Shown here: piece by piece, positions 4,479 to 16,273 of the stretch
Layout: every line of letters begins with the position of its first letter
Position numbering within the stretch: the stretch's first letter is position 1
Made by a program: the position numbers and the translations under genes
Origin: Candidatus Omnitrophota bacterium
GTDB lineage: Bacteria > Omnitrophota > Gorgyraeia > 2-01-FULL-45-10
Reading direction: 5' to 3'
Assembly (NCBI GenBank): GCA_023818895.1
Contig: JAMWCX010000002.1
Span: forward strand, 240,001 to 272,000
Length of the DNA stretch: 32,000 nucleotides
Notes under the pieces: model-generated
Seen by the model: only the letters and a program-made list of their open reading frames with translations
Database searches by the model: none
What the model was told of the DNA's origin: nothing

Positions 4479-4480
4479 TA

Positions 4481-5524
4481 CTAATACACTCCCATCTGCT
4501 TGACCAGAAATACCATCCCAACCATGCTCAAGTTGTGTATCATATGTACTGTTATGGAGGATACCAGAGTCCCTGTCTTCTCATACAAATACGCTAGAAG
4601 CATGCCGAGAGCCAGTATCGGAAAGAATCCGACCGCATGGGCGTGAAGGGCAGCAAAGGTAGCGGCGCTTATCAAAGTGGCTCCGAAGATGCCGATATAC
4701 TTCTTGACGGCGTTGTACATGAAGCCCCTGAAGAAAAGCTCCTCTACCACCGGCCCGGCGATAGCCGCGAACAGGCTCGTGTAGACAAGGAAGGGGGCGC
4801 TTTCTTCTTTCAAGAAAAGCTCCACCACTGCCTGTTTTTCCGGAACATACTTTAAGAGATTTGAAATAAAAGCTATGACGACAAGAAGCCCCACCAGTAC
4901 CGGTATTATCGCTATATAGCCGACCAAGCCGTAAAAGACATTCCTTGAGAAATTCTTCAACGAAAGCCCCAGTGAAGATATCTTCTCCTTGTATTGCCCT
5001 ACAGTAAAATAAAATATGAAAAATACAGCAAGTATATCAAGTATTGAAGAGTTGAGTATCATCCTAAAATTATCATCTTTTAAGAGAGGGAATATTCTCG
5101 ATAGAGAAGCTTCTATTATAAGAATAATATAACCGAAGAACAGGAATAATATAACAACCCTGCAGACATCCCATAAACCCCACCGTATCATGCGAGGCCT
5201 AAAGGTGCTTATCTCAAGTCTATTTCCTACCAACTTTGAAAAAATGAGCATCGCATCCACCACAAGACCCAGGCATATCAGGAGAAGAAAAAGAAGCGAG
5301 ACCATTCCTACTATAATCGCAAGATCCCTATTGGTGTCCAGAATTTCCCGAACCTCCTGTTCTTTGACAAATAACTCCTGCCTTTGCCGTTCCGATTTTT
5401 CGGCATTGGCGGAGCGTGCCCTGTCTTCGCCCGGCATCATTACCACGGCAGTCATGAGAAGAACGAATATCAAAAGAAGTATATACATTCGCTCCTGTCT
5501 CAAGAACCCTAAAAATCTTCTCAT
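4481..5524 (-). CDS. CPBP-family intramembrane glutamic endopeptidase (CAAX protease-like)
   Basis: Multi-pass hydrophobic protein with CPBP motifs EELFFRG, FAALHAH and HMIHN. The ORF-track start at 5587 would overlap the upstream gene by 67 nt. The ATG at 5524 gives an ATGA overlap with the tatD stop, so I moved the start there. Confidence 0.75.
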   Translation of the reverse strand: MRRFLGFLRQERMYILLLIFVLLMTAVVMMPGEDRARSANAEKSERQRQELFVKEQEVREILDTNRDLAIIVGMVSLLFLLLICLGLVVDAMLIFSKLVGNRLEISTFRPRMIRWGLWDVCRVVILFLFFGYIILIIEASLSRIFPLLKDDNFRMILNSSILDILAVFFIFYFTVGQYKEKISSLGLSLKNFSRNVFYGLVGYIAIIPVLVGLLVVIAFISNLLKYVPEKQAVVELFLKEESAPFLVYTSLFAAIAGPVVEELFFRGFMYNAVKKYIGIFGATLISAATFAALHAHAVGFFPILALGMLLAYLYEKTGTLVSSITVHMIHNLSMVGMVFLVKQMGVY

Positions 5525-6888
5525 CCGACTACTCCTAAAAATCTCGGTCTGAATTTCGCGCCAAGAGATTTCGCTATCTCTTCGCACTTTTTCATGTCAA
5601 CTCCCGCCAGGTCAAGGCATGTAACTTCCACCTCCATGCCTGTGGCAACGCAATCCTTTATGAAGCTCTTGATCGCTTCATAGGCTCCGGCAAGCTGGGG
5701 CTTACAATACCTATCATACAGTTCTTTTGTATCGGCATTGAGGCTTACCGACACTCTGTCGATCAGGCCGCAAAGCTCTTTAGCGATCTTCCGGGAATTT
5801 ATAAGGTCGCCATGGCCGTTAGTTACCATCCTAACCTTGACATTCATTTTCTTCAGTTCAGACGAGACCGCCTTTACGACATCCAGCCGTAAGGTCGGCT
5901 CGCCGTAACCACAGAAGACTATCTCCTTATAACGCTTTGGATCTCCGACTGCCTTAACAAGTTCGTCGGCCGAAGGCTCCCTCTCAAGTTTGAGGTTATG
6001 GCCTTTTACAAAATCTGTCTTAGCGCGTATACAAAAGTCACAAGCGTTGGTGCAACGGTTCGTGATATTAAGGTAGAGCGAATCACGTATTCTATAGGCA
6101 ATCGTAGGCGCCTCGCCGACGCCCAGTTTAAAGAGCCTGTTGGCATTATGGGTTGTTATCCTCTCGACGTCGTTCTTGGAAAGGCCGAGGAGGCTGCTCC
6201 ATTCCTCTACCAGATAAGAAAGATGCGCAGGTTCGTTACGCTGCCCCCGCACGGCTTGCGGCGCCAGGTATGGCGCGTCGGTCTCGAGGAGCAGCCTTTC
6301 GACGGGCATCGCCTTGGCGACCTCTCTTAAGGCGCCGGCGTTTTTGAAGGTCAGGTTGCAGGTGAATGATACGTACAGTCCGACGTCGAGGCATCTTTTG
6401 AGGAAATCCGCATCCCCGGAAAAACAATGCATGACGCCACGTGCCTCTTTAGGCCATTCTTCTTTCAACACCGCGAGGATCTCCTCCTCGGCTTGTCTAC
6501 CGTGCAAGACTAAAGGTAGATTCAGGTCACGGGCAAGGCGTATGAATTTCTTAAACACAGCAATCTGCGCCTCTTTAGGAGATAGGTTCCGATAATAATC
6601 GAGACCCACCTCGCCTATAGCCACGATCTTTCTTTCTTCTTTGCCAAGCGACCTGAGTTCAGCTATGACTTCGTCCGTCACGGTCTCGGCATGGTGAGGG
6701 TGGACACCGAGCGTGGCATATACCTGCGGATATCTTTTGGCAAGCTCAACCGAACGGCGAGTGCCTTCGACGGAACTTCCGATATTTACTATCTTTTCTA
6801 CGCCTGCCTTAAACGCCCTATCCAAAACGACATCCCGATCTTCGTCAAATTCATGAAAATCAAGATGACAATGGGTATCTATCATCAT
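5521..6888 (-). CDS. TatD-family metal-dependent hydrolase fused to a TatD-associated radical SAM domain
   Basis: 455 aa. Residues 1-256 (nt 6121-6888) carry TatD motifs: MIDTHCHLD, GEVGLDY, HCFSG, ETDAPYL. Residues 262-455 (nt 5524-6105) carry the radical SAM motif CTNACDFC (CxxxCxxC, nt 6031-6054) and GYGEPTL. Confidence 0.8.
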   Translation of the reverse strand: MMIDTHCHLDFHEFDEDRDVVLDRAFKAGVEKIVNIGSSVEGTRRSVELAKRYPQVYATLGVHPHHAETVTDEVIAELRSLGKEERKIVAIGEVGLDYYRNLSPKEAQIAVFKKFIRLARDLNLPLVLHGRQAEEEILAVLKEEWPKEARGVMHCFSGDADFLKRCLDVGLYVSFTCNLTFKNAGALREVAKAMPVERLLLETDAPYLAPQAVRGQRNEPAHLSYLVEEWSSLLGLSKNDVERITTHNANRLFKLGVGEAPTIAYRIRDSLYLNITNRCTNACDFCIRAKTDFVKGHNLKLEREPSADELVKAVGDPKRYKEIVFCGYGEPTLRLDVVKAVSSELKKMNVKVRMVTNGHGDLINSRKIAKELCGLIDRVSVSLNADTKELYDRYCKPQLAGAYEAIKSFIKDCVATGMEVEVTCLDLAGVDMKKCEEIAKSLGAKFRPRFLGVVG

Positions 6889-6898
6889 AATAACGATA

Positions 6899-6927
6899 AT
6901 TATATTCTATAAAGGCTTCAAATGCAA
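6899..6927 (-). promoter_or_regulatory. candidate sigma70-type promoter of the tatD-led operon
   Basis: Minus strand reads TTGCAT (6927-6922), 17 nt, TATAAT (6904-6899). The ATG at 6888 lies only 10 nt past the -10 and has no Shine-Dalgarno. Confidence 0.4.
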
Positions 6928-6940
6928 GGCTGTAAGGCCA

Positions 6941-6981
6941 ACAAAAAGAGGTCATGCCCCCTTTTTAGGGATTGACCTCTT
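6941..6981 (-). terminator. rho-independent terminator after the 238-aa gene
   Basis: Minus strand reads AAGAGGUCA[AUCCCUAAAAAGGGGGCA]UGACCUCUU followed by UUUGUU. Nine-bp outer stem with inner CCCU/GGGG pairing. About 30 nt past the stop at 7014. Confidence 0.6.
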
Positions 6982-7013
6982 ATCACGCCAAGCATTATTT
7001 TAGACACAACGCC

Positions 7014-7730
7014 TCACGCCGCCTGCGCATCGGCCTGAATGGTAGCCGATCTTACCTCCTTTAATATTTCGCCGTTTGGATTATATATGACCACCGAAAC
7101 AAGGCCTCCTGTTTCGGGATCGGAGTCGTCATACCAATACGCCGAAGCGTAGCATTTCTTATAATGGATTTTTTCCGTCCCAGGATAATAGACGTATTCG
7201 TATGCCACAGCCCCTTCCATATCCGGCCAAGCCCTCACCGCCTTATTGACCCTCCCGCAAAAAGAGCTTCCTGGCCCCCAATAATCCCCTGCGATGTCGC
7301 TATCAGTCAGCACCTCATCATCCATATAATGGTAATAGACATTGCCTTCCGTGTCAGGCACAGCCAGTCTCATACTCTGACGGTGGTTTGTCTCATCATT
7401 ATAAAATGTAAAGATAGCGGCGAATCTGGCCCAATCGGTATCCTTAAAATACACCACGCTTTTGAACCGGCCGGCTACCGGGTCGTAATAGGAATATGTG
7501 TATGAGGTGCCGAGCGAAAAATTTATTGATTTATCCGGCCGCGGTGGCGCCACATCCATAAAATGCACATAATCGAGAGGGGTCCCACAGGCATCTATTA
7601 TTAATTGCGACTGGATATTACCGTTGGGATAACGAGTGTAGCAGATATTTGTGCCGGCAATAACGGAATCCTTTATCCTTAAGCCAACCTTATTGGTAAG
7701 TCGCGCAAATATTCCGAATACCGGTTTCAT
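7014..7730 (-). CDS. hypothetical Tyr/Asp/Trp-rich protein with YD-repeat-like segments
   Basis: 238 aa, AGGA about 9 nt upstream of the ATG, own terminator. No signal peptide evident. Segments YSYYDPVAGRFKSVVYF and YWYDDSDPETGGLVSVVIYNPNGEI resemble the YD/RHS repeat pattern (YxYDxxGR[LIF]). Function unknown. Confidence 0.6.
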   Translation of the reverse strand: MKPVFGIFARLTNKVGLRIKDSVIAGTNICYTRYPNGNIQSQLIIDACGTPLDYVHFMDVAPPRPDKSINFSLGTSYTYSYYDPVAGRFKSVVYFKDTDWARFAAIFTFYNDETNHRQSMRLAVPDTEGNVYYHYMDDEVLTDSDIAGDYWGPGSSFCGRVNKAVRAWPDMEGAVAYEYVYYPGTEKIHYKKCYASAYWYDDSDPETGGLVSVVIYNPNGEILKEVRSATIQADAQAA

Positions 7731-7772
7731 GGCGGAATTCCTACAGTTTTAAAATCTATTAACTTACGCCTG

Positions 7773-7817
7773 AAAAAAATTGCCCGGTCACCGTTTTTTT
7801 TGCTTTCGGTAACCAGG
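7773..7817 (-). terminator. intrinsic terminator acting as the expression platform of the upstream aptamer
   Basis: Minus strand: CCUGGUUACCG (7817-7807), 13-nt A-rich loop, CGGUGACCGGG (7793-7783). That is 11 bp including 2 G-U pairs, followed by CAAUUUUUUU (7782-7773). The 5' arm is the conserved 3' block of the aptamer, so the two folds exclude each other. Confidence 0.6.
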
Positions 7818-7920
7818 CTGTCTGAAGAATCAGATCCTTGGCTTTGCTACGGCCTTTCTTTCAGGCCGCAATCCCTTTTGGGATGTCCCCATCTCGCGAT
7901 GGGTTTGCCTTTTTCGAAGC
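7802..7920 (-). promoter_or_regulatory. candidate c-di-GMP-I (GEMM-I)-like riboswitch aptamer with a 37-nt insertion
   Basis: Minus-strand RNA: GCUUCGAAAAAGGCAAACCCAUCGCGAGAUGGGGAC[AUCCCAAAAGGGAUUGCGGCCUGAAAGAAAGGCCGUA]GCAAAGCCAAGGAUCUGAUUCUUCAGACAGCCUGGUUACCGAAAGC. Three blocks match, in order, the conserved cores of the V. cholerae Vc2 aptamer as I recall it: GGCAAAC plus a 6-bp hairpin with a GNRA loop plus GAC; GCAAAGCC; AGCnnGGUUACCGA. A P1 pairing GCUUCG/CGAAAGC and a P3 hairpin are possible. A TATATAAT -10-like element lies at 7931-7924 just upstream. Confidence 0.5.
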
Positions 7921-7983
7921 TCGATTATATAATCCAGAAAATTTAGAAAACTCTTCAAACTTTTTTATGGATTAACAATTCAG

Positions 7984-8017
7984 AAAATAATAGGGGCGGA
8001 CATTACCATACCGCCCC
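7984..8017 (-). terminator. rho-independent terminator of the giant gene
   Basis: Minus strand: GGGGCGG (8017-8011), 11-nt loop, CCGCCCC (7999-7993), then UAUUAUUUUCUG. Forty nt past the stop at 8057. Confidence 0.7.
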
Positions 8018-8056
8018 TTATGATTACCTTATCTTTAGCCTGAGATGCTGTGGTCC

Positions 8057-11000
8057 TTAAGCGGATATCAGAGCCTGAGATATACTTTCATATTCTTTCC
8101 TCGCGTCATACGCCTCTATCGGCCTGTAAGAAAGTATACCTTTTATAAGCTTGAGCACATCATCGTTTATAATAGCGTTTATGTAATCTTCAGCCGCTAT
8201 GCCGTCATAAAGATTAAAATGAGATTTGAGATAGAAGCTTAGAACCCTATATATAGGCGAATCCTGCGGCGTATCCTTATCGATGCGCCGCGCAAGAAGC
8301 ATCATGGCATAGGTATCAAGCTGGAACTGTTCGCGATAACTATCCTTCTCCGCTTTTGCGCTGAGAAGATCCTGCGTGCTGGTCCTTATGAACCTGACGC
8401 CGGCCTGCGTAAGCTTCCTGAGGTGGTATTCCGAGAGCTCAAACGGCACCAGGGCTATGGATCTACCCTCTTTGCCGGCGGCCTTGGCGAGGACATTATC
8501 CACAAAGTGGTCGAAAGTCTGCCCGCTTACGCTGTCGAGGTCGAACCTGTCGCCGTACCTGTTCCTGTGCTCTTCGAGCTCACCGTTTCTGTAAAATTCC
8601 GATGCGATGAGGAGGGTGTAGCGCTCCTGCGGGTGTGTAGGGATCATCAATCCGGCCTCTCTGGCAAGGGTAGCCATATGGGTCATTTCGTCTTCACTAT
8701 TTAATATCTTGGCTTCCCCTATATGAGAAACTATCATGCGCTCCGTCAACAATCTTTCGATATCACGGCGAATAAACAAAGGCAACTGAATATACGCGTC
8801 AGATTTCAAATATATATCGCCCTTATCGTTCAATTCTTCTATCGCCTCCACAAAAGCGTTGATCCTTTGCCTACTTCTTGCGTATTCAGGGCTTGTGCTG
8901 GGCGCTAATTCAATAACATTATACATACTCTGCAATAAAAGAGAGACGTTTTCAAATTCTCCTTTAGAATACATATCTAATATCATCGCTTTTGTTCCAT
9001 TAAACACCTCATCGTGCGAAATATTGCCGCTTATCATCTCGCCGCGCGCCGACGCGCTGGTGTTATCGAGTTCGTCGCTATGCTCACCGCGTGTCGTTGA
9101 GGCAACGACACTGCCTTTGCCCGATGCAGGCAACATCGAGTATTCTTCAGGGTTGAATAATTCAAGGTTAACGACTGGTTTTTCATATCGTTTGGCTCGC
9201 AGGGCAATATCCTTCGCCCTCTGCCTCCCCAATGCCGACAATTTAAATTGTTTCTCATTCCTCGGCCCTGCCTCGACAATCTGTTCCAGAACCCTCTGTT
9301 TTAACAGAGAATTTTGAGATTGGAACAGGTCGCGTTCGGCTGTTCTAACGATAGAACTCCAGTTAGGAGCGGGAGCCTCAAATCCGAGATCCTTGTAATG
9401 CTGTCTGTATATTTCGGCAATTTTAGGCGCTGAAATTATATCGCCCGGCTTTAAATATAGCGCTATGAGTTTCAGTGTATCCTCCGGGCTCTTGCCCGGC
9501 CGCGCAATAAAACGTCCTTTATCATCCATTCTGGGAGATTCGCCAAACAAGTGATCTACAAGTTCTTCATATTGTTGGCGCTTTGCAAACAATATCTCCC
9601 GTCCGATCTTTGGATCAACCTTAAACACAACCCTTCCCGAAGCGAGCTCTAGGACCAGAATCCCGTCTTTTACCAACGCCATAAGGTCTTTTCTGGCGGT
9701 TGAGGGGGGAATGATGGATTCGAAATTAAGTTCGGGATGCGAAGCCACCACTCTCTTATATTCTGTCTTGTACTTATTGATATCGAACGACCCTTTCTGC
9801 AAAATCTCAGAAAGCGCTATGACCATCATGGCATCTTCGGGGCTCTTCCCGGACCGCTTGCCAAATGTGCCGTCATCATTTCGCGGTTGAGGCCTTGGCC
9901 GACCAAGCGCCGAGTAGGCCTTTTCGACTTCTTTCTTCGACTCCTCCACTGACTCATCGAGGATTTCCATCATCCTGGTTTGTATTAAAATATGGGCTTT
10001 GGTAAGGGCAAGCATGGTCTTTCCATCTCGCGCCGACAACGCAAGTTCCCTACTATTACGAAGATTCGACAAAGCCTGGCTTAGGATTTCATAGTTCGAG
10101 ATTTCGTTCATCAGAGATTCAAGCTCATCCAAACTCTTTTTTCCTTTTACTATATCATCTAAAAGCGCTGCTATACCGGAGAGCATAGCCTCTTTACGGC
10201 TGACACCTCCCGAGACAGCCTCGAATACCCATTTGCCATTTTTCTTAACAAGAAATCCGCCTCGTCTTGCATCATCAAGTATTAGATATCTCTCATCTGA
10301 ATATTTGATAACCTTGAATTGTTTTGTAAAACTATATACATAATGCTCGCTATGAACGGCTCCATCGGCATTAGCATATAGCATCAATATCTCATCCTTC
10401 TGCTTGCCGTTCATCTCAAGTCCGCTTTCCTCAACCATCTGATGCATAGCCGCTCTGGTTTTGTCGCCTTCACCAATCATCTCTACCTCGCGAGAGGAGG
10501 CGATTTTATGACCATCTTTAAGCCTGGCGTAAAGTATGCTGCCGCCAATATATTGCTGCACTATCGAATTGGCTGGAATGTCGTCCGTTGCCTCTACGGC
10601 CTCAAGACCGGCAAGAGTCCATTCGAGTCTCTCTATCGTCCTAAGAGCCTCTCTATCGCCGTCTTTGCCCGCCATCTCAAGGGCCCTATCTATCAGTTCC
10701 TGTGCGTAATATTTTATCAAAGGAAGCTCGTAAGCAAGATAACCGTTAAAGGTAATATCGGCTTTCGGCCAATTGGGGTAAACCATCTCTATCTGCCGTT
10801 TTCGCTCCCCTTGCCAGGTCCTTATGACATCCAATGCGTCTCTTCCTTCCGTATAATAATAGGTAAGTATATGCCTTAGAAGTCTCAAGTCTAGCGATGT
10901 GAGCGGCCAGTTGCCACTAAGCTTCATGCTAGGCGCGGTATTGACAAATATGCTAAACCTAATTTTTTCCGGTATTGCTTTTAATATGGAATCGCTCAAT

Positions 11001-13498
11001 GCGTAATTACCTTCGGCTATGACTATATCGTCTTTAGCCAGCTGTATCGTCTTTTCTACTCTTTTACCTTTAACATAGTCGAAAGTTGTTATCGGCTTAC
11101 CCTCACGCAGCGCTTCGATTTCTTTCAGCGTAAGCCTGTCGAAATCTATACGTACCGCCCTTCTGCCATATTCTTTTAGACGATCAACGATATTCATACT
11201 GAGGCCTATCTTTCCGCTCGTCACAGGCCCTGTAACAATAACGAAACTATTGCCTTTTTCAGGAAGCTTTGAGATTATTTTTTTAACTATGTTATCGATC
11301 TCTTTAGACTTTTCGCTCTCTACATATTTTATAAGATCCGGAAATTTCCCGTCTCTTATGAGCTGATTCAGCTCCTCGACGGTTTCCGGCACAAATAGGG
11401 TATTACCATAACCTTTATATGGCTTCCCATCGTCTTTAAATATTGCTGCTAACCTCGCATTCCTAGCCAGCTCTGCGTGTACCATCCTTATCACAGCTAT
11501 TACACCTGCCGCCTTTCGCAAAGTAACTTCATATCGTTGCGCGGTTTCAAGAACGGCTATCGTTGCGGCTCTCATCCTTTCCTCAAGCATCTTATCCACC
11601 GCCGTAAGCGTCCACTGCTCCTCCTCGAGGTTCTGCAACCACTCGAAATAAGAAACGGCTACGCCGCCGGCGTTGGCCAGTATATCGGGAACGACCAATA
11701 TGCCTTTTGCCTCAAGAATTTTATCGGCTTCCGGCGTTGTTGGGCCGTTTGCCGCCTCAACTATAAGTTTGGCGCGTATTTTCTTCGCAACCTCAGCGGT
11801 TACGGTGCTTTCTCGCGCTGCCGGAATCAGGATATCACAGCTGGTAGACCAAAATTCTTCCGCGGTAATAGAAGACGCGCCGCTAAAATTGGAGAATGTA
11901 TTACCCTTATTTCTTGTTTTGTAATCACCTTTGAGCGCGTTGGCAAAAAGGTGCTTATCAAGAGCTTTTATATCTATACCATTGTCGTTAAAGATAATCT
12001 CATCGGTTTTATTTAGCGCGTCGTATTCTTTAATTGCCACAATCTTAGCACCGGCTTCATAAAATATCCTCGCTGCCCAACCGCCCACATTGCCGTATCC
12101 TTCTATAAGTACCTTCTTACCTCTCACATCAGGCCCTATGCCAAGCTTGATTCCGACGGCCTTCAAAACCGTCACTGTTGTGAAGAAAACACCTTGCCCT
12201 GTCGCCTTTTCCCTCCCTAGCGAACCGCCTTTCCCAACGGGTTTTCCAGTTACGACCGCCGCGGCCATAGGATCTTTTGTATTTATCGCGTATTCATCAC
12301 GCATCCAGTCCATGAGCATTCCGTCGGTACCCATATCCGGGGCAGGAACATCAACGAGCGGCCCTATCACGGCCTCTGCCTTATTAGGGGCGAGCTTATC
12401 TGTATAAGCCCTCATTAAACGTTCTTTTTCAGATTCCGAAAGACTCTTCGGATCACATATGATTCCCCCTTTTCCGCCACCATAAGGTATGCCCACAACG
12501 GCACATTTCAAAGTCATCCACTTTGAAAGGGCCCGCACCTCAGTCTCGCTTACTGCAGGATCCCACCTTATCCCACCTTTGGCTGGGCCACGTGCGTCGT
12601 TATCAAGAGAGCGATATCCTTTGAAGAGCTTGATGCTACCATCGTCCATCTTGACCGGCAGGTCAACCCTTGTCAAAAGCTGTGTATGTAAAAAGCCGGT
12701 GAAACCGACACTCGGCATGCCATGTAAGAATATTGGGTCGAGATCTATCGTATCCGCTATATCGCACATCTGCTGCCTGGCGATATCGAGCGGATCGGGG
12801 GTTGCTTTTTGACTTTGGCTTGCCTGATGCACCAAACTGGCTGGAATAGTGGATAGTTTGTCATGGTCCTCACGCGCCACACCACCTGAAACCATCATCA
12901 TCTTCCAGTTGCCGTTTTCGTAAGCAAGGTATCCGCCTATCTTGTCCCGATCGAGAACAAGATACTTATCTTTAGATATCTTTTTTACTGTGTAAGAATA
13001 GGCTTCGGCAATAATATCCTCTCTTTTCTGGTTCGTGAGTTTCGCATACATAGTTAAGATGTCTATCTTCTCCTGCGTGTATACCTGTATGGGGAATCCA
13101 CCTTCGGCATCTTTGAGAGGGGAATACACCGCGTAATATGTCCTGGGCAGCTCATTGCCGCTCTGCCTTATTCGGAACCTGACAGCTATCAGTCCGCTGG
13201 GAAGAACTTCGCGTTCCCTGAAAAATGGCTGCACACCATCCGGATTCATTGTCCCCCTTTCTCTGACAAGAATGTCGCCGGAGAGCGCTGATGGGCCGAA
13301 TTTTTTCAGAATCTCCTCAAGAAATATCTTTATCCTGCCCATATCTTGATTCTGAATTCCGGTTATGTCGTCTATCTGCGAAGGTACAGCAAGTTTGTCC
13401 AAAGCGGATTTTTGGCAAAACGCTGGTTCTAGCAAAATACTGTTCAATATGAAAAAGGATGCTGTAACTGCAGTAATGGTCTTTTTGAATATTTTCAT
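8057..13498 (-). CDS. giant multidomain protein (signal peptide, repeat A, glutamate dehydrogenase domain, uridine-kinase-like domain, repeat A', coiled linker, 2x repeat B, unknown C-terminal domain); no established name
   Basis: Uninterrupted 1813-codon ORF. AGGAGA sits 7 nt upstream of the ATG. It has its own terminator. Conserved enzyme motifs are in frame throughout (see the domain features). Confidence 0.85.
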   Translation of the reverse strand: MKIFKKTITAVTASFFILNSILLEPAFCQKSALDKLAVPSQIDDITGIQNQDMGRIKIFLEEILKKFGPSALSGDILVRERGTMNPDGVQPFFREREVLPSGLIAVRFRIRQSGNELPRTYYAVYSPLKDAEGGFPIQVYTQEKIDILTMYAKLTNQKREDIIAEAYSYTVKKISKDKYLVLDRDKIGGYLAYENGNWKMMMVSGGVAREDHDKLSTIPASLVHQASQSQKATPDPLDIARQQMCDIADTIDLDPIFLHGMPSVGFTGFLHTQLLTRVDLPVKMDDGSIKLFKGYRSLDNDARGPAKGGIRWDPAVSETEVRALSKWMTLKCAVVGIPYGGGKGGIICDPKSLSESEKERLMRAYTDKLAPNKAEAVIGPLVDVPAPDMGTDGMLMDWMRDEYAINTKDPMAAAVVTGKPVGKGGSLGREKATGQGVFFTTVTVLKAVGIKLGIGPDVRGKKVLIEGYGNVGGWAARIFYEAGAKIVAIKEYDALNKTDEIIFNDNGIDIKALDKHLFANALKGDYKTRNKGNTFSNFSGASSITAEEFWSTSCDILIPAARESTVTAEVAKKIRAKLIVEAANGPTTPEADKILEAKGILVVPDILANAGGVAVSYFEWLQNLEEEQWTLTAVDKMLEERMRAATIAVLETAQRYEVTLRKAAGVIAVIRMVHAELARNARLAAIFKDDGKPYKGYGNTLFVPETVEELNQLIRDGKFPDLIKYVESEKSKEIDNIVKKIISKLPEKGNSFVIVTGPVTSGKIGLSMNIVDRLKEYGRRAVRIDFDRLTLKEIEALREGKPITTFDYVKGKRVEKTIQLAKDDIVIAEGNYALSDSILKAIPEKIRFSIFVNTAPSMKLSGNWPLTSLDLRLLRHILTYYYTEGRDALDVIRTWQGERKRQIEMVYPNWPKADITFNGYLAYELPLIKYYAQELIDRALEMAGKDGDREALRTIERLEWTLAGLEAVEATDDIPANSIVQQYIGGSILYARLKDGHKIASSREVEMIGEGDKTRAAMHQMVEESGLEMNGKQKDEILMLYANADGAVHSEHYVYSFTKQFKVIKYSDERYLILDDARRGGFLVKKNGKWVFEAVSGGVSRKEAMLSGIAALLDDIVKGKKSLDELESLMNEISNYEILSQALSNLRNSRELALSARDGKTMLALTKAHILIQTRMMEILDESVEESKKEVEKAYSALGRPRPQPRNDDGTFGKRSGKSPEDAMMVIALSEILQKGSFDINKYKTEYKRVVASHPELNFESIIPPSTARKDLMALVKDGILVLELASGRVVFKVDPKIGREILFAKRQQYEELVDHLFGESPRMDDKGRFIARPGKSPEDTLKLIALYLKPGDIISAPKIAEIYRQHYKDLGFEAPAPNWSSIVRTAERDLFQSQNSLLKQRVLEQIVEAGPRNEKQFKLSALGRQRAKDIALRAKRYEKPVVNLELFNPEEYSMLPASGKGSVVASTTRGEHSDELDNTSASARGEMISGNISHDEVFNGTKAMILDMYSKGEFENVSLLLQSMYNVIELAPSTSPEYARSRQRINAFVEAIEELNDKGDIYLKSDAYIQLPLFIRRDIERLLTERMIVSHIGEAKILNSEDEMTHMATLAREAGLMIPTHPQERYTLLIASEFYRNGELEEHRNRYGDRFDLDSVSGQTFDHFVDNVLAKAAGKEGRSIALVPFELSEYHLRKLTQAGVRFIRTSTQDLLSAKAEKDSYREQFQLDTYAMMLLARRIDKDTPQDSPIYRVLSFYLKSHFNLYDGIAAEDYINAIINDDVLKLIKGILSYRPIEAYDARKEYESISQALISA
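9179..9547 (-). repeat. internal protein repeat B, copy 2 (residues ~1318-1440)
   Basis: RMDDKGRFIARPGKSPEDTLKLIAL...VRTAERDLFQ...LEQIVEAGPRNEKQFKL. Shares DD.G.F..R.GKSPED....IAL and a later TA..DL segment with copy 1. Confidence 0.6.
9569..9901 (-). repeat. internal protein repeat B, copy 1 (residues ~1200-1310)
   Basis: RNDDGTFGKRSGKSPEDAMMVIAL...STARKDLMALVKDGILVLELASGRVVFKV. GKSPED codons verified at 9833-9850. Confidence 0.6.
10184..10408 (-). repeat. internal protein repeat A, copy 2 (residues ~1031-1105)
   Basis: ILMLYANA...YSFTKQFKVIKYSDERYLILDDARRGGFLVKKNGKWVFEAVSGGVSRKE aligns with copy 1. Shared pattern: Y.(V/I)LD....GG(Y/F)L...NG.W....VSGGV.R. Confidence 0.7.
10529..11266 (-). 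other. uridine-kinase-like (long Udk/nucleoside-kinase family) domain, residues ~745-990
   Basis: FVIVTGPVTSGKIG (Walker A-like), FDYVKGKR, DIVIAEGNYAL, LRLLRHILTYYYTEGRDA..VIRTW, PKADITFNGYLAYELPLIKYYA and IPANSIVQQYIGGS. These follow the order I recall for the ~550-aa clostridial Udk-like kinases (GPSSSGKTT ... FDF.TGKR ... IIEG ... LLRR.VRD ... ADVMFNSAL.YEL ... IP.NSILREFIGGS). Confidence 0.65.
11459..12715 (-). other. Glu/Leu/Phe/Val dehydrogenase (glutamate dehydrogenase-type) domain, residues ~262-680
   Basis: Motifs PAKGGIRW, GIPYGGGKGGI (catalytic Lys; AAA codon verified at 12470-12472), PAPDMGT, TGKPVGKGGSLGRE.ATG.GV, Rossmann GYGNVGG, ILIPAA, EAANGPTTPEA, PDILANAGGV.VSYFEW.QN. Confidence 0.85.
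12854..13078 (-). repeat. internal protein repeat A, copy 1 (residues ~141-215)
   Basis: ILTMYAKL...YSYTVKKISKDKYLVLDRDKIGGYLAYENGNWKMMMVSGGVARED aligns with copy 2. Confidence 0.7.
13415..13498 (-). other. predicted N-terminal signal peptide or membrane anchor of the giant protein
   Basis: Residues 1-28 MKIFKKTITAVTASFFILNSILLEPAFC: a basic n-region, an uncharged hydrophobic core, then a small-residue region. Confidence 0.6.
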
Positions 13499-13531
13499 AC
13501 AATTTCTCCTATAGTTTATCTATATTGTTTA

Positions 13532-14509
13532 TTACATCGGGTGTGCTTCAACCGGCCTGAGAGTATGATATCCGCCTTTATCCTCTTTCTCCAGTATGGC
13601 CGCATCCTCTTCTATACGATGATACGGCATTATACCTTTATAGCCTTTCAGTCTTTTCCATTCTTCATCCGAATAAACGACTACGGAAAAGCCCTCGTCT
13701 TTTTTCCCATTGATCGAAAATAAGGCGTGATAATACCGCTTTTCATTTGAGTCTTCGGCTCTGCATAACACCCGAAAGCCACACGAGGTAAGTTCCAATT
13801 TATCGAACATGAAAGTTATGGAAACTCTCCCCCCTAAATCGAATCTCTTATCTTTCAATATGGTAATGAAGGTGCCTATATTGAGTGGCATCTTTGTCCT
13901 GGCAAAGGAGGCAAGTTGCTCATGCATGACTACCTTAATTATGCCCATATCCTTATATTCGGCGCCTAAAATATTGCCATGAAGTAAAGAGGCTGACAAA
14001 TTATTCGCCGCAATGTTTATCGAGTATCCTCTTTCTACCGCTTGACCAAGATCGCCGTTATCGGACATGTAAATTATCTTCTCCCAGTCGGGAAATTGCT
14101 GGTTGATTGTTTCAATCAGTGTCCGGCCTTTTGTCTTTATCATTTCCCGGTTAGATATGTAGCTATAGGTTGTTCCATACTTAAATACGCATATTGCGTG
14201 CATCATACCTATCTGCCTAAATCGGATAACTATAACATCGCTTTTTATGCCAAGGTGTTTAAGGATATAATGGCTTAAGAGAGCCAGGTCTTCGCAATCC
14301 CCTTTTCTCGTTCGAATAGTTTCTTCAATGCTTTGTCTCGAGTCTGGAAATTTAAACTCATACGAAAACTCACTCTGCAACCAGGCCACAAGATCTTCCG
14401 GAGATTTTATCGTACTTGGAATTGCTACGTTACTATAAGACAGACAGTTTCCCGGCGAGAAAAGGACGCACGCTATAACAAGGATTATTAATAAACTATT
14501 CTTAGTCAT
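13532..14509 (-). CDS. secreted transglutaminase-like / BTLCP (LapG-like) cysteine peptidase
   Basis: Start moved to the ATG at 14509: AGGAG lies 11 nt upstream, the N-terminus MTKNSLLIILVIACVLFSPGNC is signal-peptide-like, and the ORF-track extension contains a promoter and a terminator. Motif W...F.Y......SIEETIRTRKGDCEDLALLSHYILKHLGI, then MMHAICVF, then ISN about 16 residues later. That gives Cys (TGC at 14294-14296), His and Asn in the spacing of the transglutaminase-like catalytic triad. Only 33 nt separate it from the giant gene. Confidence 0.7.
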   Translation of the reverse strand: MTKNSLLIILVIACVLFSPGNCLSYSNVAIPSTIKSPEDLVAWLQSEFSYEFKFPDSRQSIEETIRTRKGDCEDLALLSHYILKHLGIKSDVIVIRFRQIGMMHAICVFKYGTTYSYISNREMIKTKGRTLIETINQQFPDWEKIIYMSDNGDLGQAVERGYSINIAANNLSASLLHGNILGAEYKDMGIIKVVMHEQLASFARTKMPLNIGTFITILKDKRFDLGGRVSITFMFDKLELTSCGFRVLCRAEDSNEKRYYHALFSINGKKDEGFSVVVYSDEEWKRLKGYKGIMPYHRIEEDAAILEKEDKGGYHTLRPVEAHPM

Positions 14510-14555
14510 CGATTCTATCGCTCCTAAAGAATGTTTATATAAACGTTTATTTTCG

Positions 14556-14585
14556 AAAAAAAATGCCTGGCAATTTATGCCAGGC
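14556..14585 (-). terminator. strong rho-independent terminator (downstream of metG, upstream of the peptidase gene)
   Basis: Minus strand: GCCUGGCA UAAAU UGCCAGGC A UUUUUUUU. Perfect 8-bp GC-rich stem, 5-nt loop, U8 tract. Confidence 0.8.
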
Positions 14586-14656
14586 TTATCACCATCTATC
14601 ATTTTAATTTTATAACGCATCTGTCTTTTTGTTTTGCTAATTTGTATTGTATAGAA

Positions 14657-14684
14657 AGTATAACACACGATAATCTGTTGTCAA
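14657..14684 (-). promoter_or_regulatory. candidate near-consensus sigma70-type promoter
   Basis: Minus strand: TTGACA (14684-14679), 16 nt, TGT-TATACT (extended -10; hexamer 14662-14657). Predicted start near 14650, about 65 nt upstream of the terminator hairpin. Confidence 0.45.
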
Positions 14685-14725
14685 GTATTTATATCTAACT
14701 TTTTTATTATTTAACTACTAGGAAT

Positions 14726-16273
14726 TTAGATGCGAGGGAAAAGCGGTGAGGACTTCCTAATTTTTTGGAAAGGCTTGAGATCTCCCCATTTTTTAATCAC
14801 TGAATAGGCCGTTTCCTGCGGCGATAGCTCCATTCCAAGCTGGAACCATATCTTTTGGGATGTCTGTGGCATAAACGGATAGATCGCCATTCCGGTGATT
14901 CTTAATACTTCAAGCAACGTATATATGACAGTAGCCAGCTCTCCTTTCTTATCCTCTTTGGCAAGCGCCCATGGCTTAGACTCTTCGATCAATTTGTTCG
15001 CCATGCCAATGGCTTCCCAGATAGCGGCGAGCGCGCCAACAAAATCAAATTCCGGCAAGCGTTTCTCCATCTCTCCACCAATCGCCAGCGCCTTTTTCTT
15101 CAACCCTTCGATCTCCTGAGTCCGCAGTACTGACTCCCGAGCATCTGGCACTTCTGCCCCAAAATACTTCTCCACCATCGTAAGCGTCCTGCTAAGGAGA
15201 TTTCCTAGGTCGTTAGCCAGGTCGCTATTGTATCTGGCAATAAGCGCCTCTTCGCTGAAAGCCCCGTCCATACCGAACTGCACCTCTTTAAGAAGAAAAT
15301 ACCTGTATGGGTCAACACCGAAACGGCTGATTATATCCGCCGGATCGACTATATTACCTTTGGACTTGGACATCTTCTCGCCTTTAATAATCCACCACCC
15401 ATGCGCAAATATAGTCTTTGGCGGTTCTATCTCAAGCGCCTGCAGCATGATAGGCCAATAGACCGCGTGGTGACGAAGTATATCCTTGCCTATGACATGG
15501 ACATCTGCAGGCCAGTGCCTCTTGAAGCGCTCCATATCGTGTGGATAACCAACCCCTGAGATATAATTGATAAGCGCGTCAAACCAGACATAAGTGACAT
15601 ACTCTTTATCGAACGGCACCTCTATACCCCAGCCCATCCTGCTCTTCGGCCTTGATATGCATAGATCCAGAAGCTCCTCCTTAAGAAATCCCAGGACCTC
15701 ATTTCGACGGAAATAGGGCTTTATGAAATCTGGGTGGCTGTTGATATGGTTGATGAGCCACTGTTGGTATTCGGATATCTTTAAAAAATAATTCGACTCA
15801 TTTAGTCTCTCGATGGGACGCTTGCAGTCTGGACAGATGCCTTCTGGGGCCTGATTTTCCGACCAGAATGTTTCGCAAGGAGTGCAAAACCAGCCCTTAT
15901 ATATTTTTTTATAGATTTTCCCGCCCTTGTGGAGCCTATCAAGGACCGCCTGGACCGTTTTTATATGGTAGTCGTCCGTTGTTCTTATAAAATAATCGTA
16001 CTCGATTCCGAGGGCTTTCCACAGGCCCTGAAAGACCGGCACAATGCCATCCACGAATTTCTTCTCCTCCCCTTCTTTGAATCCAGCTTTGATTGTGGCC
16101 TCCTCAATCTTTTCGCCGTGTTCATCGGTGCCAGTCATGAAGAAGACATCGGAGCGAGTCTGCCTCAGGAATCGCGCTACCGTATCGCAGGCGATCTGCG
16201 TGTAGGAATGGCCTATATGGGGTTTTGAGTTTACGTAATATAAAGGAGTTGTTAGGTAGTAAGATTTGGACAT
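14726..16273 (-). CDS. metG: methionine--tRNA ligase
   Basis: 515 aa. YYVNSKPHIGH (HIGH), KMSKSKGN (KMSKS), zinc knuckle CPDCKRP. Confidence 0.95.
   Translation of the reverse strand: MSKSYYLTTPLYYVNSKPHIGHSYTQIACDTVARFLRQTRSDVFFMTGTDEHGEKIEEATIKAGFKEGEEKKFVDGIVPVFQGLWKALGIEYDYFIRTTDDYHIKTVQAVLDRLHKGGKIYKKIYKGWFCTPCETFWSENQAPEGICPDCKRPIERLNESNYFLKISEYQQWLINHINSHPDFIKPYFRRNEVLGFLKEELLDLCISRPKSRMGWGIEVPFDKEYVTYVWFDALINYISGVGYPHDMERFKRHWPADVHVIGKDILRHHAVYWPIMLQALEIEPPKTIFAHGWWIIKGEKMSKSKGNIVDPADIISRFGVDPYRYFLLKEVQFGMDGAFSEEALIARYNSDLANDLGNLLSRTLTMVEKYFGAEVPDARESVLRTQEIEGLKKKALAIGGEMEKRLPEFDFVGALAAIWEAIGMANKLIEESKPWALAKEDKKGELATVIYTLLEVLRITGMAIYPFMPQTSQKIWFQLGMELSPQETAYSVIKKWGDLKPFQKIRKSSPLFPRI

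What the first reader, a model, noticed from the sequence alone, without database searches (positions are those of the whole stretch)
8057..13498. 1813-aa signal-peptide protein embedding an apparently intact glutamate dehydrogenase core plus a Udk-like kinase module
Seen: one uninterrupted ORF with a good RBS and its own terminator. Residues 1-28 look like a signal peptide or anchor. Residues ~262-680 carry the full ELFV-dehydrogenase motif set (KGGIR, GGGKGG catalytic Lys, GYGNVGG Rossmann, ANAGGV). Residues ~745-990 follow the motif order of the long uridine-kinase-like nucleoside kinases. The remaining ~900 residues are two kinds of internal repeat plus an unassignable C-terminal domain. 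Known: GDHs of this motif type are usually stand-alone cytoplasmic hexamers of ~420-450 aa. The known giant NAD-GDHs (~1600 aa class) have a different layout and no kinase module. Inference: I do not recognise this combination as a described architecture. If the GDH core still hexamerises, the product would be a megadalton exported or envelope-tethered assembly. Candidate roles are enzymatic (glutamate and nucleoside handling outside the cytoplasm) or a scaffold built from co-opted enzyme folds.
Basis: partly seen in the sequence, partly recalled or inferred. Interest (0 to 1): 0.8.

Follow-up and report, generated by a model that had tools for sequence, protein, structure and literature searches.

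The report
Glutamate dehydrogenase fused to degenerate kinase
This is a real 1813-residue gene of an uncultured Omnitrophota bacterium in which an intact glutamate dehydrogenase is permanently joined to a crippled uridine-kinase-like domain, a two-part unit that recurs in at least 40 other, often giant, proteins and has not been described before.

Summary
There is one uninterrupted 1813-aa ORF (8057-13498, minus strand) with an AGGAG ribosome-binding site and a hairpin terminator. It has a Sec-like leader, a full ELFV glutamate dehydrogenase (GDH), a uridine-kinase-family module, two kinds of internal repeat and orphan terminal domains.

The interpretation needs three corrections.
1. The architecture is not a one-off. 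GDH followed directly by this kinase-like module forms a cassette in at least 40 protein clusters (454-7823 aa). Labelled members are mostly Candidatus Omnitrophota. Minimal versions of about 800 aa exist, one in a Verrucomicrobiae MAG.
2. The kinase module is degenerate. Against stand-alone relatives it lacks the Mg-binding Thr after GK, a roughly 27-29-aa nucleoside-binding segment and half of the lid. It keeps the P-loop Lys, one Asp, one Glu and two Arg. It is therefore unlikely to be a uridine kinase and more likely binds a nucleotide or phosphate.
3. The GDH is almost certainly catalytic. All ten catalytic and binding positions checked are invariant in 34 of 34 diverged members.

Export is unresolved: the leader predicts it, but the cofactor-dependent cargo argues against it. 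No paper describing the cassette was found. I rate it a new variant of known kinds, of moderate to high interest.

The parts
13506..13510 (-). Ribosome-binding site AGGAG, 7-nt spacer before the ATG at 13498
   Evidence: Read directly from the sequence.
13415..13498 (-). Residues 1-28: Sec-type leader or signal anchor (MKIFKK, then TITAVTASFFILNSILL, then EPAFC|Q)
   Evidence: Translation. Its hydropathy is below a 19-residue TM threshold. Similar leaders occur in nearly all full-length family members. No signal-peptide predictor was available.
13079..13396 (-). Residues ~35-140: orphan N-domain, starting at the 'DKLAVPS' motif (a long helix plus a 4-stranded antiparallel sheet in the model)
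   Evidence: Shared with P0005, P0006, P0012, P0014 and with the upstream ORF. Alignment A3. AF2 core pLDDT is 76-86. No Pfam hit. No Foldseek PDB match.
12866..13075 (-). Residues 142-211: repeat type 1, copy a (4-stranded beta meander ending in ...SGGV.RED)
   Evidence: Self-comparison E 1.5e-11 against residues 1032-1103. The model shows strands at fragment residues 141-174.
11444..12790 (-). Residues ~237-685: complete small-type (Thermus/archaeal-like) glutamate dehydrogenase, with K307, K331, K343, D388, S616 and Rossmann motif G467-x-G469-x-x-G472
   Evidence: Pfam. NCBIfam GdhA_Arch scores 387 bits, below its equivalog cut-off of 750. PDB 3aoe_A E 7e-98. The catalytic columns are invariant in 34/34 family members.
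10484..11431 (-). Residues 690-1005: degenerate uridine-kinase/PRK-family P-loop module (GPVTSGKIG; IDFD then a deletion; AEGNYAL; NTAPSMKL; PLTSLDLRLLRHILTY)
   Evidence: Homologous to ~546-aa PF00485 proteins. Motif loss is quantified. It scores below the Pfam and TIGR cut-offs.
10190..10405 (-). Residues 1032-1103: repeat type 1, copy b
9545..9886 (-). Residues ~1205-1318: repeat type 2, copy a (~115 aa, GKSPED motif)
   Evidence: One copy is also present in P0005. No Pfam hit and no PDB-sequence hit.
9179..9535 (-). Residues ~1322-1440: repeat type 2, copy b
8726..9016 (-). Residues ~1495-1591: helical bundle preceding the C-terminal domain
   Evidence: AF2 model, helices with pLDDT about 73-88.
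8060..8701 (-). Residues ~1600-1813: orphan alpha/beta C-terminal domain ending ...SYRPIEAYDARKEYESISQALISA-COOH
   Evidence: Shared with P0005, P0006 and P0014 (51% identity). AF2 shows 4 parallel strands with helices, mean pLDDT 72. Best Foldseek PDB hit has E 0.04 and TM ~0.2. Terminal Ala is a family trait.
7982..8018 (-). Intrinsic-terminator-like hairpin (8-bp GC-rich stem, 11-nt loop) plus a T-rich tail
13532..14668 (-). Upstream co-oriented ORF, 33-bp spacer: leader, then a transglutaminase-like core, then a copy of the same N-domain (its residues 214-348, window 13625-14029)
   Evidence: Pfam Transglut_core 4e-6. N-domain match to P0012 at E 3e-17. NCBI calls a 224-aa version of this gene.

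Best explanation
The ORF is one genuine gene on an Omnitrophota chromosome. It belongs to an undescribed family built around a two-domain cassette: a catalytically intact small-type glutamate dehydrogenase followed, after a constant short linker, by a domain derived from the long uridine-kinase-like P-loop kinases.

Shown:
- The cassette recurs in at least 40 protein clusters at 50% identity, from ~800-aa minimal proteins to 7823-aa giants.
- The GDH active-site and glutamate-specificity residues never vary.
- The kinase-derived domain has lost the Mg-binding Thr, the nucleoside-binding segment and half of the lid. It keeps the P-loop Lys, the Asp aligned with the kinase catalytic base, a Glu and two lid Arg.

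Inferred:
- The GDH oxidises glutamate or aminates 2-oxoglutarate with NAD(P).
- The degenerate kinase domain no longer phosphorylates nucleosides. It binds a nucleotide or phosphate ligand and acts as a built-in allosteric or structural partner of the GDH, comparable in logic to purine-nucleotide control of other GDHs.
- The lineage-specific parts (leader, N-domain, two repeat types, C-terminal domain with an Ala terminus) are swappable targeting or assembly modules. They attach the enzyme to the cell envelope or to partner proteins, such as the adjacent transglutaminase-like protein that carries the same N-domain.

Open: whether the body ends up outside the cytoplasmic membrane. I put this at about 50:50.
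For: Gene reality: ORF, RBS and terminator. The identical protein is on two contigs.

Cassette recurrence: Exhaustive phmmer with the kinase module gave 26 hits at E<=1e-30, and most of the top ~45 are long proteins. Local mapping shows a GDH immediately upstream in about 40 of them. Minimal complete forms exist: P0041 (800 aa, no leader, 81.7-kb Verrucomicrobiae contig), P0054 (839 aa, leader plus cassette) and P0040 (852 aa).

GDH intact: The query is about 50% identical to Thermus GDH over the full length. K307, G308, G309, R311, K331, K343, D388, N584, N609 and S616 are invariant in 34/34 members, against a mean column majority of 0.57.

Kinase degenerate:
- Residue after GK is S/T in 2/37 fused modules against 99/103 unfused.
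- The D[DN][YF][YFH] motif is present in 1/40 against 109/127.
- Walker-A-to-EG spacing is 61 against 90 residues.
- Lid R876, R879 and D880 are lost (3/37, 0/37 and 0/37, against 39/40 each).
- K763 (36/37), D787 (34 D plus 3 E), E829 (30/37), R872 (35/37) and R875 (32/37) are kept.
- The query module scores 30 bits against udk, versus 61-108 bits for stand-alone relatives.

Modularity: The N-domain and C-domain occur without a GDH in P0014, and the N-domain occurs in the upstream ORF. The syntenic locus L011 has the same flanks (metG 65% and TatD-rSAM 64% identical). Its central gene shares only the leader and N-domain (38%) and a distant GDH (34%).
Against: - No biochemical or expression data exist.
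- The regulatory role of the kinase-derived domain is inference only. The retained Lys, Asp, Glu and Arg residues could equally support a changed catalytic activity.
- Hexamer formation was not tested.
- The N-domain and C-domain models are of modest confidence (pLDDT 62 and 72) and have no structural neighbours, so 'targeting/assembly' is a guess from their distribution.
- Localisation evidence conflicts. The leader is canonical and conserved, yet the periplasm is not expected to supply NAD(P) or nucleotides.
- Gene neighbourhoods of other family members are unrelated, so no pathway context supports any particular role.
Confidence: 0.6

Rival explanations
1. One reading: a Sec-exported or envelope-tethered assembly in which both a GDH and a working nucleoside kinase act outside the cytoplasm, handling glutamate and nucleosides (for example from lysed prey or a host).
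For: The tripartite leader is conserved across the family, with small residues at -3/-1. The upstream neighbour has a similar leader. Published surveys find that 94% of long Omnitrophota proteins carry a signal peptide or TM helices, and that metabolic enzyme domains are predicted outside. The downstream gene sits behind a c-di-GMP riboswitch. From my own knowledge, such riboswitches often control surface or secreted proteins.
Against: The kinase motifs are degenerate. From general knowledge, the periplasm of diderm bacteria is not known to hold NAD(P) or ATP, yet the GDH cofactor and catalytic sites are invariant. Leaderless minimal cassettes exist. The positional counterpart P0012 has a GerE DNA-binding domain behind the same type of leader. 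The topology-parity test was inconsistent.
Confidence: 0.12
2. The kinase-derived domain is still an enzyme with a new substrate. It would use the retained Lys, Asp, Glu and Arg residues to phosphorylate something other than a nucleoside, making the cassette a bifunctional enzyme.
For: The P-loop Lys, the Asp aligned with the nucleoside-kinase catalytic base, the Walker-B-like Glu and two lid Arg are conserved in 30-36 of 37 fused modules. New family-specific conserved motifs (NTAPS, PLTS) replace the ancestral ones.
Against: The Ser/Thr that ligates Mg2+ in P-loop kinases is missing in 35 of 37. The whole acceptor-binding segment is deleted. No conserved operon partner suggests a substrate.
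Confidence: 0.15
3. Pure scaffold: the GDH fold is retained only as a hexamerisation hub that multimerises long modular proteins, with no catalytic role.
For: In most leader-bearing members, including several multi-thousand-residue proteins, the cassette follows the N-terminal leader with no intervening membrane segment. The accessory modules vary freely around it.
Against: Ten catalytic, substrate-binding and cofactor-binding positions are invariant in 34/34 members at 30-60% overall identity. Minimal cassette-only proteins exist that have nothing to scaffold.
Confidence: 0.1
4. Assembly or annotation artefact: separate gdh and udk-like genes joined by a mis-assembly or a sequencing frameshift.
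For: The source is a metagenome-assembled genome, and I could not map reads.
Against: The identical protein is on two contigs. The same GDH-to-kinase junction is seen in about 40 clusters from many samples and sources. No stop or frame break occurs over 5.4 kb. The flanks are syntenic with L011.
Confidence: 0.02

Closest known systems
Small hexameric NAD(P)-glutamate dehydrogenases of the Thermus/archaeal type (Pfam PF02812 + PF00208; e.g. PDB 3aoe, 1euz, 1gtm)
   Same: Residues ~237-685 align over the full enzyme (E 7e-98, ~50% identity). All catalytic and glutamate-specificity residues and the Rossmann motif are kept.
   Different: Here the GDH is embedded in an 1813-aa protein with a leader and six further modules. 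It scores 387 bits against NCBIfam GdhA_Arch, whose equivalog cut-off is 750. It also has a ~17-residue insertion in the cofactor domain. The oligomeric state is unknown.
Long uridine-kinase-family proteins of ~546 aa (PF00485 core with a ThrRS-like or ATP-cone N-terminus; P0017-P0029, P0067 onward)
   Same: 25-30% identity over 75-98% of the module, including the helical lead-in and the C-terminal ...IP.NS..REFIGGS-like end.
   Different: The fused module lacks the GK-T-T Mg site, the DDYY segment with the ~27-29 residues after it, and the RRIVRD lid half. It has its own conserved NTAPS and PLTS motifs, and it always follows a GDH.
Large bacterial NAD-GDHs of ~1600 aa (L_180 class, Pfam PF05088 Bac_GDH_CD)
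   Same: A GDH catalytic core flanked by large non-catalytic regions, which from my own knowledge are thought to be regulatory.
   Different: The catalytic-domain subfamily differs (PF05088 scores only 15 bits, cut-off 22.8). That class has no kinase-derived domain and no leader. Its flanking domains are not homologous to those here as far as Pfam can tell.
Long and giant modular multi-enzyme proteins of Omnitrophota ('Archaeovorins'; bioRxiv 10.1101/2023.11.21.568195 and 10.64898/2026.06.07.730766)
   Same: Same phylum. Both have an N-terminal signal peptide or anchor, a mosaic of cytoplasm-type enzyme domains, and the same unresolved localisation paradox. Cassette-bearing relatives reach 7823 aa and include a protein named as HEAT-repeat-containing and one with a phosphomannomutase domain.
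   Different: The query is far below those papers' size classes (>=30,000 aa for Archaeovorins). Neither paper mentions GDH, ELFV or uridine-kinase domains in its main text. The cassette also exists as an ~800-aa protein outside Omnitrophota.

Membership tests
ELFV small-type glutamate dehydrogenase | Both Pfam domains (PF02812, PF00208) score above their gathering thresholds | tested here: met
   156.6 and 218.6 bits against cut-offs of 25.3 and 23.4.
ELFV small-type glutamate dehydrogenase | Catalytic Lys in GGGKGG, catalytic Asp in PAPD, and carboxylate-binding Lys residues (C. symbiosum K125, D165, K89, K113 by motif position; numbering from my own knowledge) | tested here: met
   K343, D388, K307 and K331 are present and align with Thermus GDH. 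They are invariant in 34/34 family members.
ELFV small-type glutamate dehydrogenase | Glutamate-specificity pair (K89 and S380 equivalents) rather than the Leu/Phe-dehydrogenase residues | tested here: met
   K307 and S616 are present and invariant.
ELFV small-type glutamate dehydrogenase | Stand-alone ~420-450-aa subunit forming a hexamer | tested here: not met
   Length and stand-alone status are not met: the GDH is embedded in 1813 aa. Hexamer formation could not be tested with these tools.
ELFV small-type glutamate dehydrogenase | Reaches an NCBIfam equivalog cut-off (GdhA_Arch 750, GdhB_Halo 620) | tested here: not met
   387 and 365 bits.
Uridine kinase / PRK family (PF00485, TIGR00235) | Profile score above the curated cut-off | tested here: not met
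   PF00485 scores 18.7 against 22; TIGR00235 scores 30.7 against 220.
Uridine kinase / PRK family (PF00485, TIGR00235) | Walker A GxxxxGK[ST] with the Mg-ligating Ser/Thr | tested here: not met
   The query has GPVTSGK-I. S/T occurs in 2/37 fused modules against 99/103 unfused.
Uridine kinase / PRK family (PF00485, TIGR00235) | Nucleoside-binding D-x-[YF]-Y segment and the loop that follows it | tested here: not met
   The Asp is kept (D787), but the aromatic pair and about 27-29 residues are deleted.
Uridine kinase / PRK family (PF00485, TIGR00235) | Complete lid motif R..RR..RD | tested here: not met
   R872 and R875 are kept. The R876, R879 and D880 equivalents are lost.
Uridine kinase / PRK family (PF00485, TIGR00235) | Detectable homology to family members over the whole domain | tested here: met
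   E 1.8e-24 to 1e-8 against PF00485 proteins, 75-98% coverage. The exhaustive search found 615 hits at E<=1e-10.
Large NAD-GDH, L_180 class (PF05088) | Bac_GDH_CD catalytic domain above threshold | tested here: not met
   15 bits against 22.8, with no stretch passing.
Sec signal peptide (SPase I type) | Positively charged n-region, hydrophobic h-region of about 7-17 residues, and a c-region with small residues at -3/-1 | tested here: inconclusive
   The features are present by eye (MKIFKK / T7-L23 / A-F-C|Q) and recur in homologs. No SignalP or DeepTMHMM was available. There is no twin-Arg motif and no lipobox.
Omnitrophota giant proteins ('Archaeovorins') | Size >=30,000 aa with glycosyltransferase, methyltransferase, peptidase and NUDIX content (definition in 10.1101/2023.11.21.568195) | tested here: not met
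   The query is 1813 aa and Pfam finds only ELFV domains. The resemblance is in phylum, leader and mosaic design only.

The most novel reading that the evidence does not exclude
The GDH plus degenerate-kinase cassette is a nucleotide-gated, hexamerising hub. It works outside the cytoplasm, assembling Sec-exported modular and giant multi-enzyme proteins into envelope-bound megacomplexes in Omnitrophota. These would run on glutamate, NAD(P) and nucleotides released from an attached host or lysed prey. The conserved Ala-terminated C-terminal element would be a second sorting or docking signal.
Probability: 0.1. Interest if true: 0.85.

Novelty: new variant of a known kind. Interest (0 to 1): 0.6.

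Why it matters
**A new GDH architecture.** GDH sits at the junction of carbon and nitrogen metabolism, and its known regulatory add-ons (the animal antenna, the large L_115 and L_180 flanks) are classic case studies. An obligate fusion to a kinase-derived, probably nucleotide-binding domain would be a further class of GDH architecture, conserved over deep divergence. The minimal form of about 800 aa (P0041, P0054) should be easy to express and test.

**A handle on long Omnitrophota proteins.** The cassette is the first conserved, recognisable unit I am aware of near the N-terminus of many long modular Omnitrophota proteins. Its invariant NAD(P) site sharpens the open question raised in the giant-protein preprints: are these signal-peptide-bearing enzyme mosaics really outside the cell? 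A single topology experiment on this leader would bear on that whole class.

**Domain shuffling.** The syntenic locus with swapped cargo shows that these proteins evolve by cassette exchange at a fixed chromosomal site.

Tried and rejected
- **Third word-indexed homology search.** I queried a concatenation of the N-region and C-region, and nothing scored although P0014 should have. I regard this as lost to the candidate cap, not as evidence of absence.
- **Homology between C-terminal domain types.** hhalign between four groups gave probabilities of at most 5%, so I make no such claim.
- **Structure searches.** Foldseek against the PDB found no significant neighbour for the C-region (best E 0.04, TM ~0.2) or the N-domain (best E 0.1).
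- **Repeat type 2 as a winged helix-turn-helix.** This was my impression, but there is no Pfam hit and no PDB-sequence profile hit. It remains untested.
- **Downstream 238-aa ORF resembling an internal part of P0005.** BLAST found nothing, so I rejected the idea.
- **The ~380-aa gene upstream of P0006 as a counterpart of the upstream ORF here.** No similarity.
- **Conserved gene neighbourhood.** None was found around P0003, P0005, P0006, P0014, P0040, P0041 or P0054. Only P0012 is syntenic.
- **Topology-parity test.** Done with a crude hydropathy predictor, it gave mixed parity even among close relatives and is inconclusive.
- **Tat or lipoprotein signal.** The query leader has no twin-arginine motif and no lipobox.
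- **Large NAD-GDH class.** Rejected on the PF05088 score.
- **Literature searches.** Searches for a GDH/uridine-kinase fusion found nothing relevant. One search on GDH size classes was defeated by term normalisation.
Full report
**1. The observation**

The window is a stretch of bacterial chromosome in which every sizeable ORF lies on the minus strand. The neighbours are housekeeping genes: tsaB/tsaE, thiL-like, mtnA-like, metG, holB, tmk, cysS, cysE, ispD/ispF and mla. GC skew is negative throughout.

The ORF 8057..13498 (minus strand) is uninterrupted and encodes 1813 residues. AGGAG sits 7 nt before the ATG. About 40 nt after the stop there is an 8-bp GC-rich hairpin with an 11-nt loop and a T-rich tail. 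The simple scanner missed it because of the loop length.

The identical protein is deposited as 'hypothetical protein NC938_04650 [Candidatus Omnitrophica bacterium]'. It occurs on two contigs, 10.3 kb and 442.8 kb.

**2. Anatomy**

- **GDH.** Pfam finds only the two ELFV dehydrogenase domains, at residues 276-404 and 424-678. NCBIfam's archaeal and haloarchaeal GDH models cover 237-679 but score below their equivalog cut-offs. Residues 276-679 align end to end with solved hexameric GDHs. The best is Thermus thermophilus 3aoe at E 7e-98, with every motif in register.
- **Kinase-like module.** Residues 690-1005 are sub-threshold against PRK/udk profiles. They match stand-alone PF00485 proteins of ~546 aa at 25-30% identity over most of their length.
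- **Repeats.** Self-comparison confirms two repeat kinds: 142-211 against 1032-1103 (E 1.5e-11), and ~1207-1281 against 1325-1404 (E 1.8e-6).
- **Unassigned regions.** No Pfam family matches 1-262, 985-1200, 1200-1460 or 1460-1813 even at E<=5.
- **C-terminal model.** An AlphaFold model of residues 1480-1813 (mean pLDDT 72) shows a helical bundle followed by a four-stranded alpha/beta unit and helices.
- **N-terminal model.** A model of residues 29-262 (mean pLDDT 62, core 76-86) shows a long helix, a four-stranded antiparallel sheet, a helix, and repeat 1 as a beta meander.
- **Structural neighbours.** Neither model has a significant neighbour in the PDB.

**3. The kinase-like module is degenerate**

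The stand-alone relatives carry GPSSSGKTT, DDYY followed by a ~27-residue acceptor-binding segment, IEGIHAL, and DLRLLRRIVRD..RG. The query instead has GPVTSGKIG, IDFD followed by a deletion, AEGNYAL, and DLRLLRHILTYYYTEGR.

Across all fetched sequences the contrast is systematic:

| Feature | GDH-fused modules | Unfused kinases |
|---|---|---|
| S/T after GK | 2/37 | 99/103 |
| D[DN][YF][YFH] motif | 1/40 | 109/127 |
| Walker-A-to-EG spacing (median) | 61 | 90 |
| Lid R876 / R879 / D880 equivalents | 3/37, 0/37, 0/37 | 39/40 each |

Some residues are retained in the fused set:
- P-loop Lys: 36/37.
- D787, which aligns with the first Asp of DDYY: 34 Asp plus 3 Glu. From my own knowledge of UCK2, this is the catalytic-base position.
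- E829: 30/37.
- R872: 35/37, and R875: 32/37.

New family-specific motifs (NTAPS, PLTS) are also conserved. I therefore read the module as no longer a nucleoside kinase, but probably still able to bind a phosphate or nucleotide. An altered catalytic activity cannot be excluded.

**4. It is a family, and the unit is a cassette**

An exhaustive phmmer search with residues 690-1010 against 1.84 billion cluster representatives gave 1281 hits at E<=1e-3 and 26 at E<=1e-30. Most of the top ~45 are long proteins, up to 7823 aa. The ~550-aa kinases dominate below about 1e-25.

Mapping query segments onto the fetched sequences shows a GDH ending 7-20 residues before the kinase-like module in about 40 of them. 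The GDH catalytic, substrate and cofactor positions K307, G308, G309, R311, K331, K343, D388, N584, N609 and S616 are invariant in 34/34 members with complete GDH regions. The average column majority is only 0.57. That pattern is what an active enzyme shows, not a fold kept merely for assembly.

Minimal versions exist as complete genes on long contigs:
- P0041: 800 aa, no leader, Verrucomicrobiae MAG, 81.7-kb contig.
- P0054: 839 aa, leader plus cassette, 73-kb contig.
- P0040: 852 aa, no leader.

Where a source names the organism, the larger members are all Candidatus Omnitrophota/Omnitrophica. A pattern scan of species-representative genomes found five loci. Three are Omnitrophota, including Ca. 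Tantalella remota with a 3128-aa ORF, and two are labelled 'uncultured Planctomycetia'. One partial member is labelled Deltaproteobacteria.

**5. Modularity and the local context**

- **N-domain and C-domain.** The N-domain (residues ~35-140) is shared with P0005, P0006, P0012 and P0014. The C-terminal domain is shared with P0005, P0006 and P0014 (51% identity). P0014 has both but no GDH.
- **Upstream ORF.** The gene 33 bp upstream (13532-14668) is co-oriented. It has its own hydrophobic leader, a transglutaminase-like core and, at its residues 214-348, a copy of the same N-domain (E 3e-17 to P0012).
- **Synteny.** The P0012 locus (L011) is syntenic with the window: metG (65% identical), the central gene, a TatD-radical-SAM fusion (64%), then an Rce1-like gene.
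- **What differs at that locus.** P0012 shares only the leader and N-domain (38%) and a much more distant GDH (34%). It has no kinase module, it has a GerE HTH domain (E 3.7e-18), and its C-terminus is different. L011 also lacks the transglutaminase-like ORF, the 238-aa ORF and the riboswitch.
- **Cassette exchange.** The query's cassette is 56-60% identical to those of P0002-P0004, which sit in proteins with other flanking domains. So the locus has been remodelled by cassette exchange.
- **Other neighbourhoods.** Those of other family members are unrelated to one another.

**6. Localisation is unresolved**

For export:
- The leader has a K-rich n-region, a 17-residue h-region below my TM threshold, and A-x-C|Q at the c-region.
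- Comparable leaders, many with ...WA|N/A/Q or ...A-x-G|Q sites, head nearly all full-length members.
- Published surveys of long Omnitrophota proteins report signal peptides or TM helices in 94%. They also note metabolic enzyme domains predicted outside, while doubting some of those predictions.

Against export:
- The cargo needs NAD(P), and its site is invariant.
- Leaderless cassettes exist.
- P0012 places a DNA-binding GerE domain behind almost the same leader.
- Counting hydrophobic segments before the GDH gives only the leader, or none above threshold, in 23 of 29 members but an even number in six. Close relatives differ: P0048 has 1, P0052 has 2 and P0058 has 3.

I put export of the body at about one half.

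**7. Comparison with what is known**

- The GDH part is a member of the small-type ELFV GDHs by domain and active site, but not by size or stand-alone status.
- The kinase part is a homolog but not a functional member of the uridine kinase family. Three defining motifs were tested and not met.
- The protein is not an L_180 large GDH.
- It resembles the modular long proteins of Omnitrophota in design but is far smaller than the defined 'Archaeovorins'. Neither preprint mentions GDH or uridine-kinase domains.
- Full-text searches found no description of a GDH/uridine-kinase-like fusion.

**8. Verdict**

The finding is real and better than a curiosity. It points to an undescribed, conserved GDH plus degenerate-kinase cassette that is widespread in Omnitrophota and present in at least one other PVC lineage.

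The mechanism I favour is an active GDH with a built-in nucleotide-binding partner domain, carried by swappable targeting or assembly modules. It rests on conservation patterns only and needs the simple biochemical and topology tests listed under next steps.

Noticed in passing
window 7805-7919 (minus strand): A c-di-GMP-I riboswitch (RF01051, 37.9 bits against gathering 35, full-length model). It lies in the 326-bp spacer between the big ORF's terminator and the downstream 238-aa ORF (7014-7730). That ORF is Tyr/Asp-rich and has no Pfam or NCBIfam hit. It is therefore probably under c-di-GMP control.
   Followed up: partly
window 13532-14668 (minus strand): The upstream ORF combines a hydrophobic leader, a transglutaminase-like core (GDCEDLA... 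motif) and a copy of the big protein's N-domain (its residues 214-348). It could be a partner or a processing/cross-linking enzyme for the GDH protein. NCBI annotates a shorter 224-aa version.
   Followed up: partly
L011 1-9426 compared with window 3375-16273: A syntenic locus in a related metagenome has orthologous flanks at 64-65% identity. Its central gene (P0012) has a different domain set: leader plus N-domain, GerE HTH, a distant GDH with KGGIS instead of KGGIR, no kinase module and a different C-terminus. It also lacks the transglutaminase-like ORF, the 238-aa ORF and the riboswitch.
   Followed up: yes
window 8060-8140 (C-terminus of the ORF) and the C-termini of P0002-P0066: 22 of 41 cassette proteins end in alanine (background 8.8%, P about 3e-13; 2 of 130 control proteins). 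Often this follows an 'hhFhLP...D...Y......h..A' element, in C-terminal domains that profile comparison could not link. It may be a C-terminal sorting, docking or degradation signal.
   Followed up: partly
L012 6001-8403; L013 6001-8520; L014 4106-6664: Minimal GDH plus degenerate-kinase proteins of 800-852 aa occur as complete genes. One is in a Verrucomicrobiae MAG without a leader, and one has a leader. Their gene neighbourhoods are unrelated to each other.
   Followed up: partly
window 5521-6888 (minus strand): A single 455-aa protein fuses a complete TatD-type hydrolase domain to a radical-SAM domain. The fusion is conserved at 64% identity in L011. I did not look into whether it is a described family.
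   Followed up: no
P0011, P0015, P0007/P0008 (hits): Other unusual GDH fusions turned up. One is a phosphoglycerate kinase-GDH protein in a Brocadiia MAG. One is a GDH joined to S41 tail-specific-protease domains. Trichinella proteins carry two tandem GDH cores.
   Followed up: no
P0010, P0048, P0052, P0053, P0057, P0058 N-terminal regions: Several giant cassette proteins share another conserved N-terminal domain after the leader (…I/VHIQTAHGHYEAQ… or …INIQDCHSSLSAQYSI…). By eye it resembles TraB/PrgY-like proteins. This was not tested.
   Followed up: no
window 1-32000: All 30 or so plausible genes are on the minus strand and GC skew is negative in every 1-kb bin, consistent with a single replichore arm. 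There are no tRNA genes.
   Followed up: no
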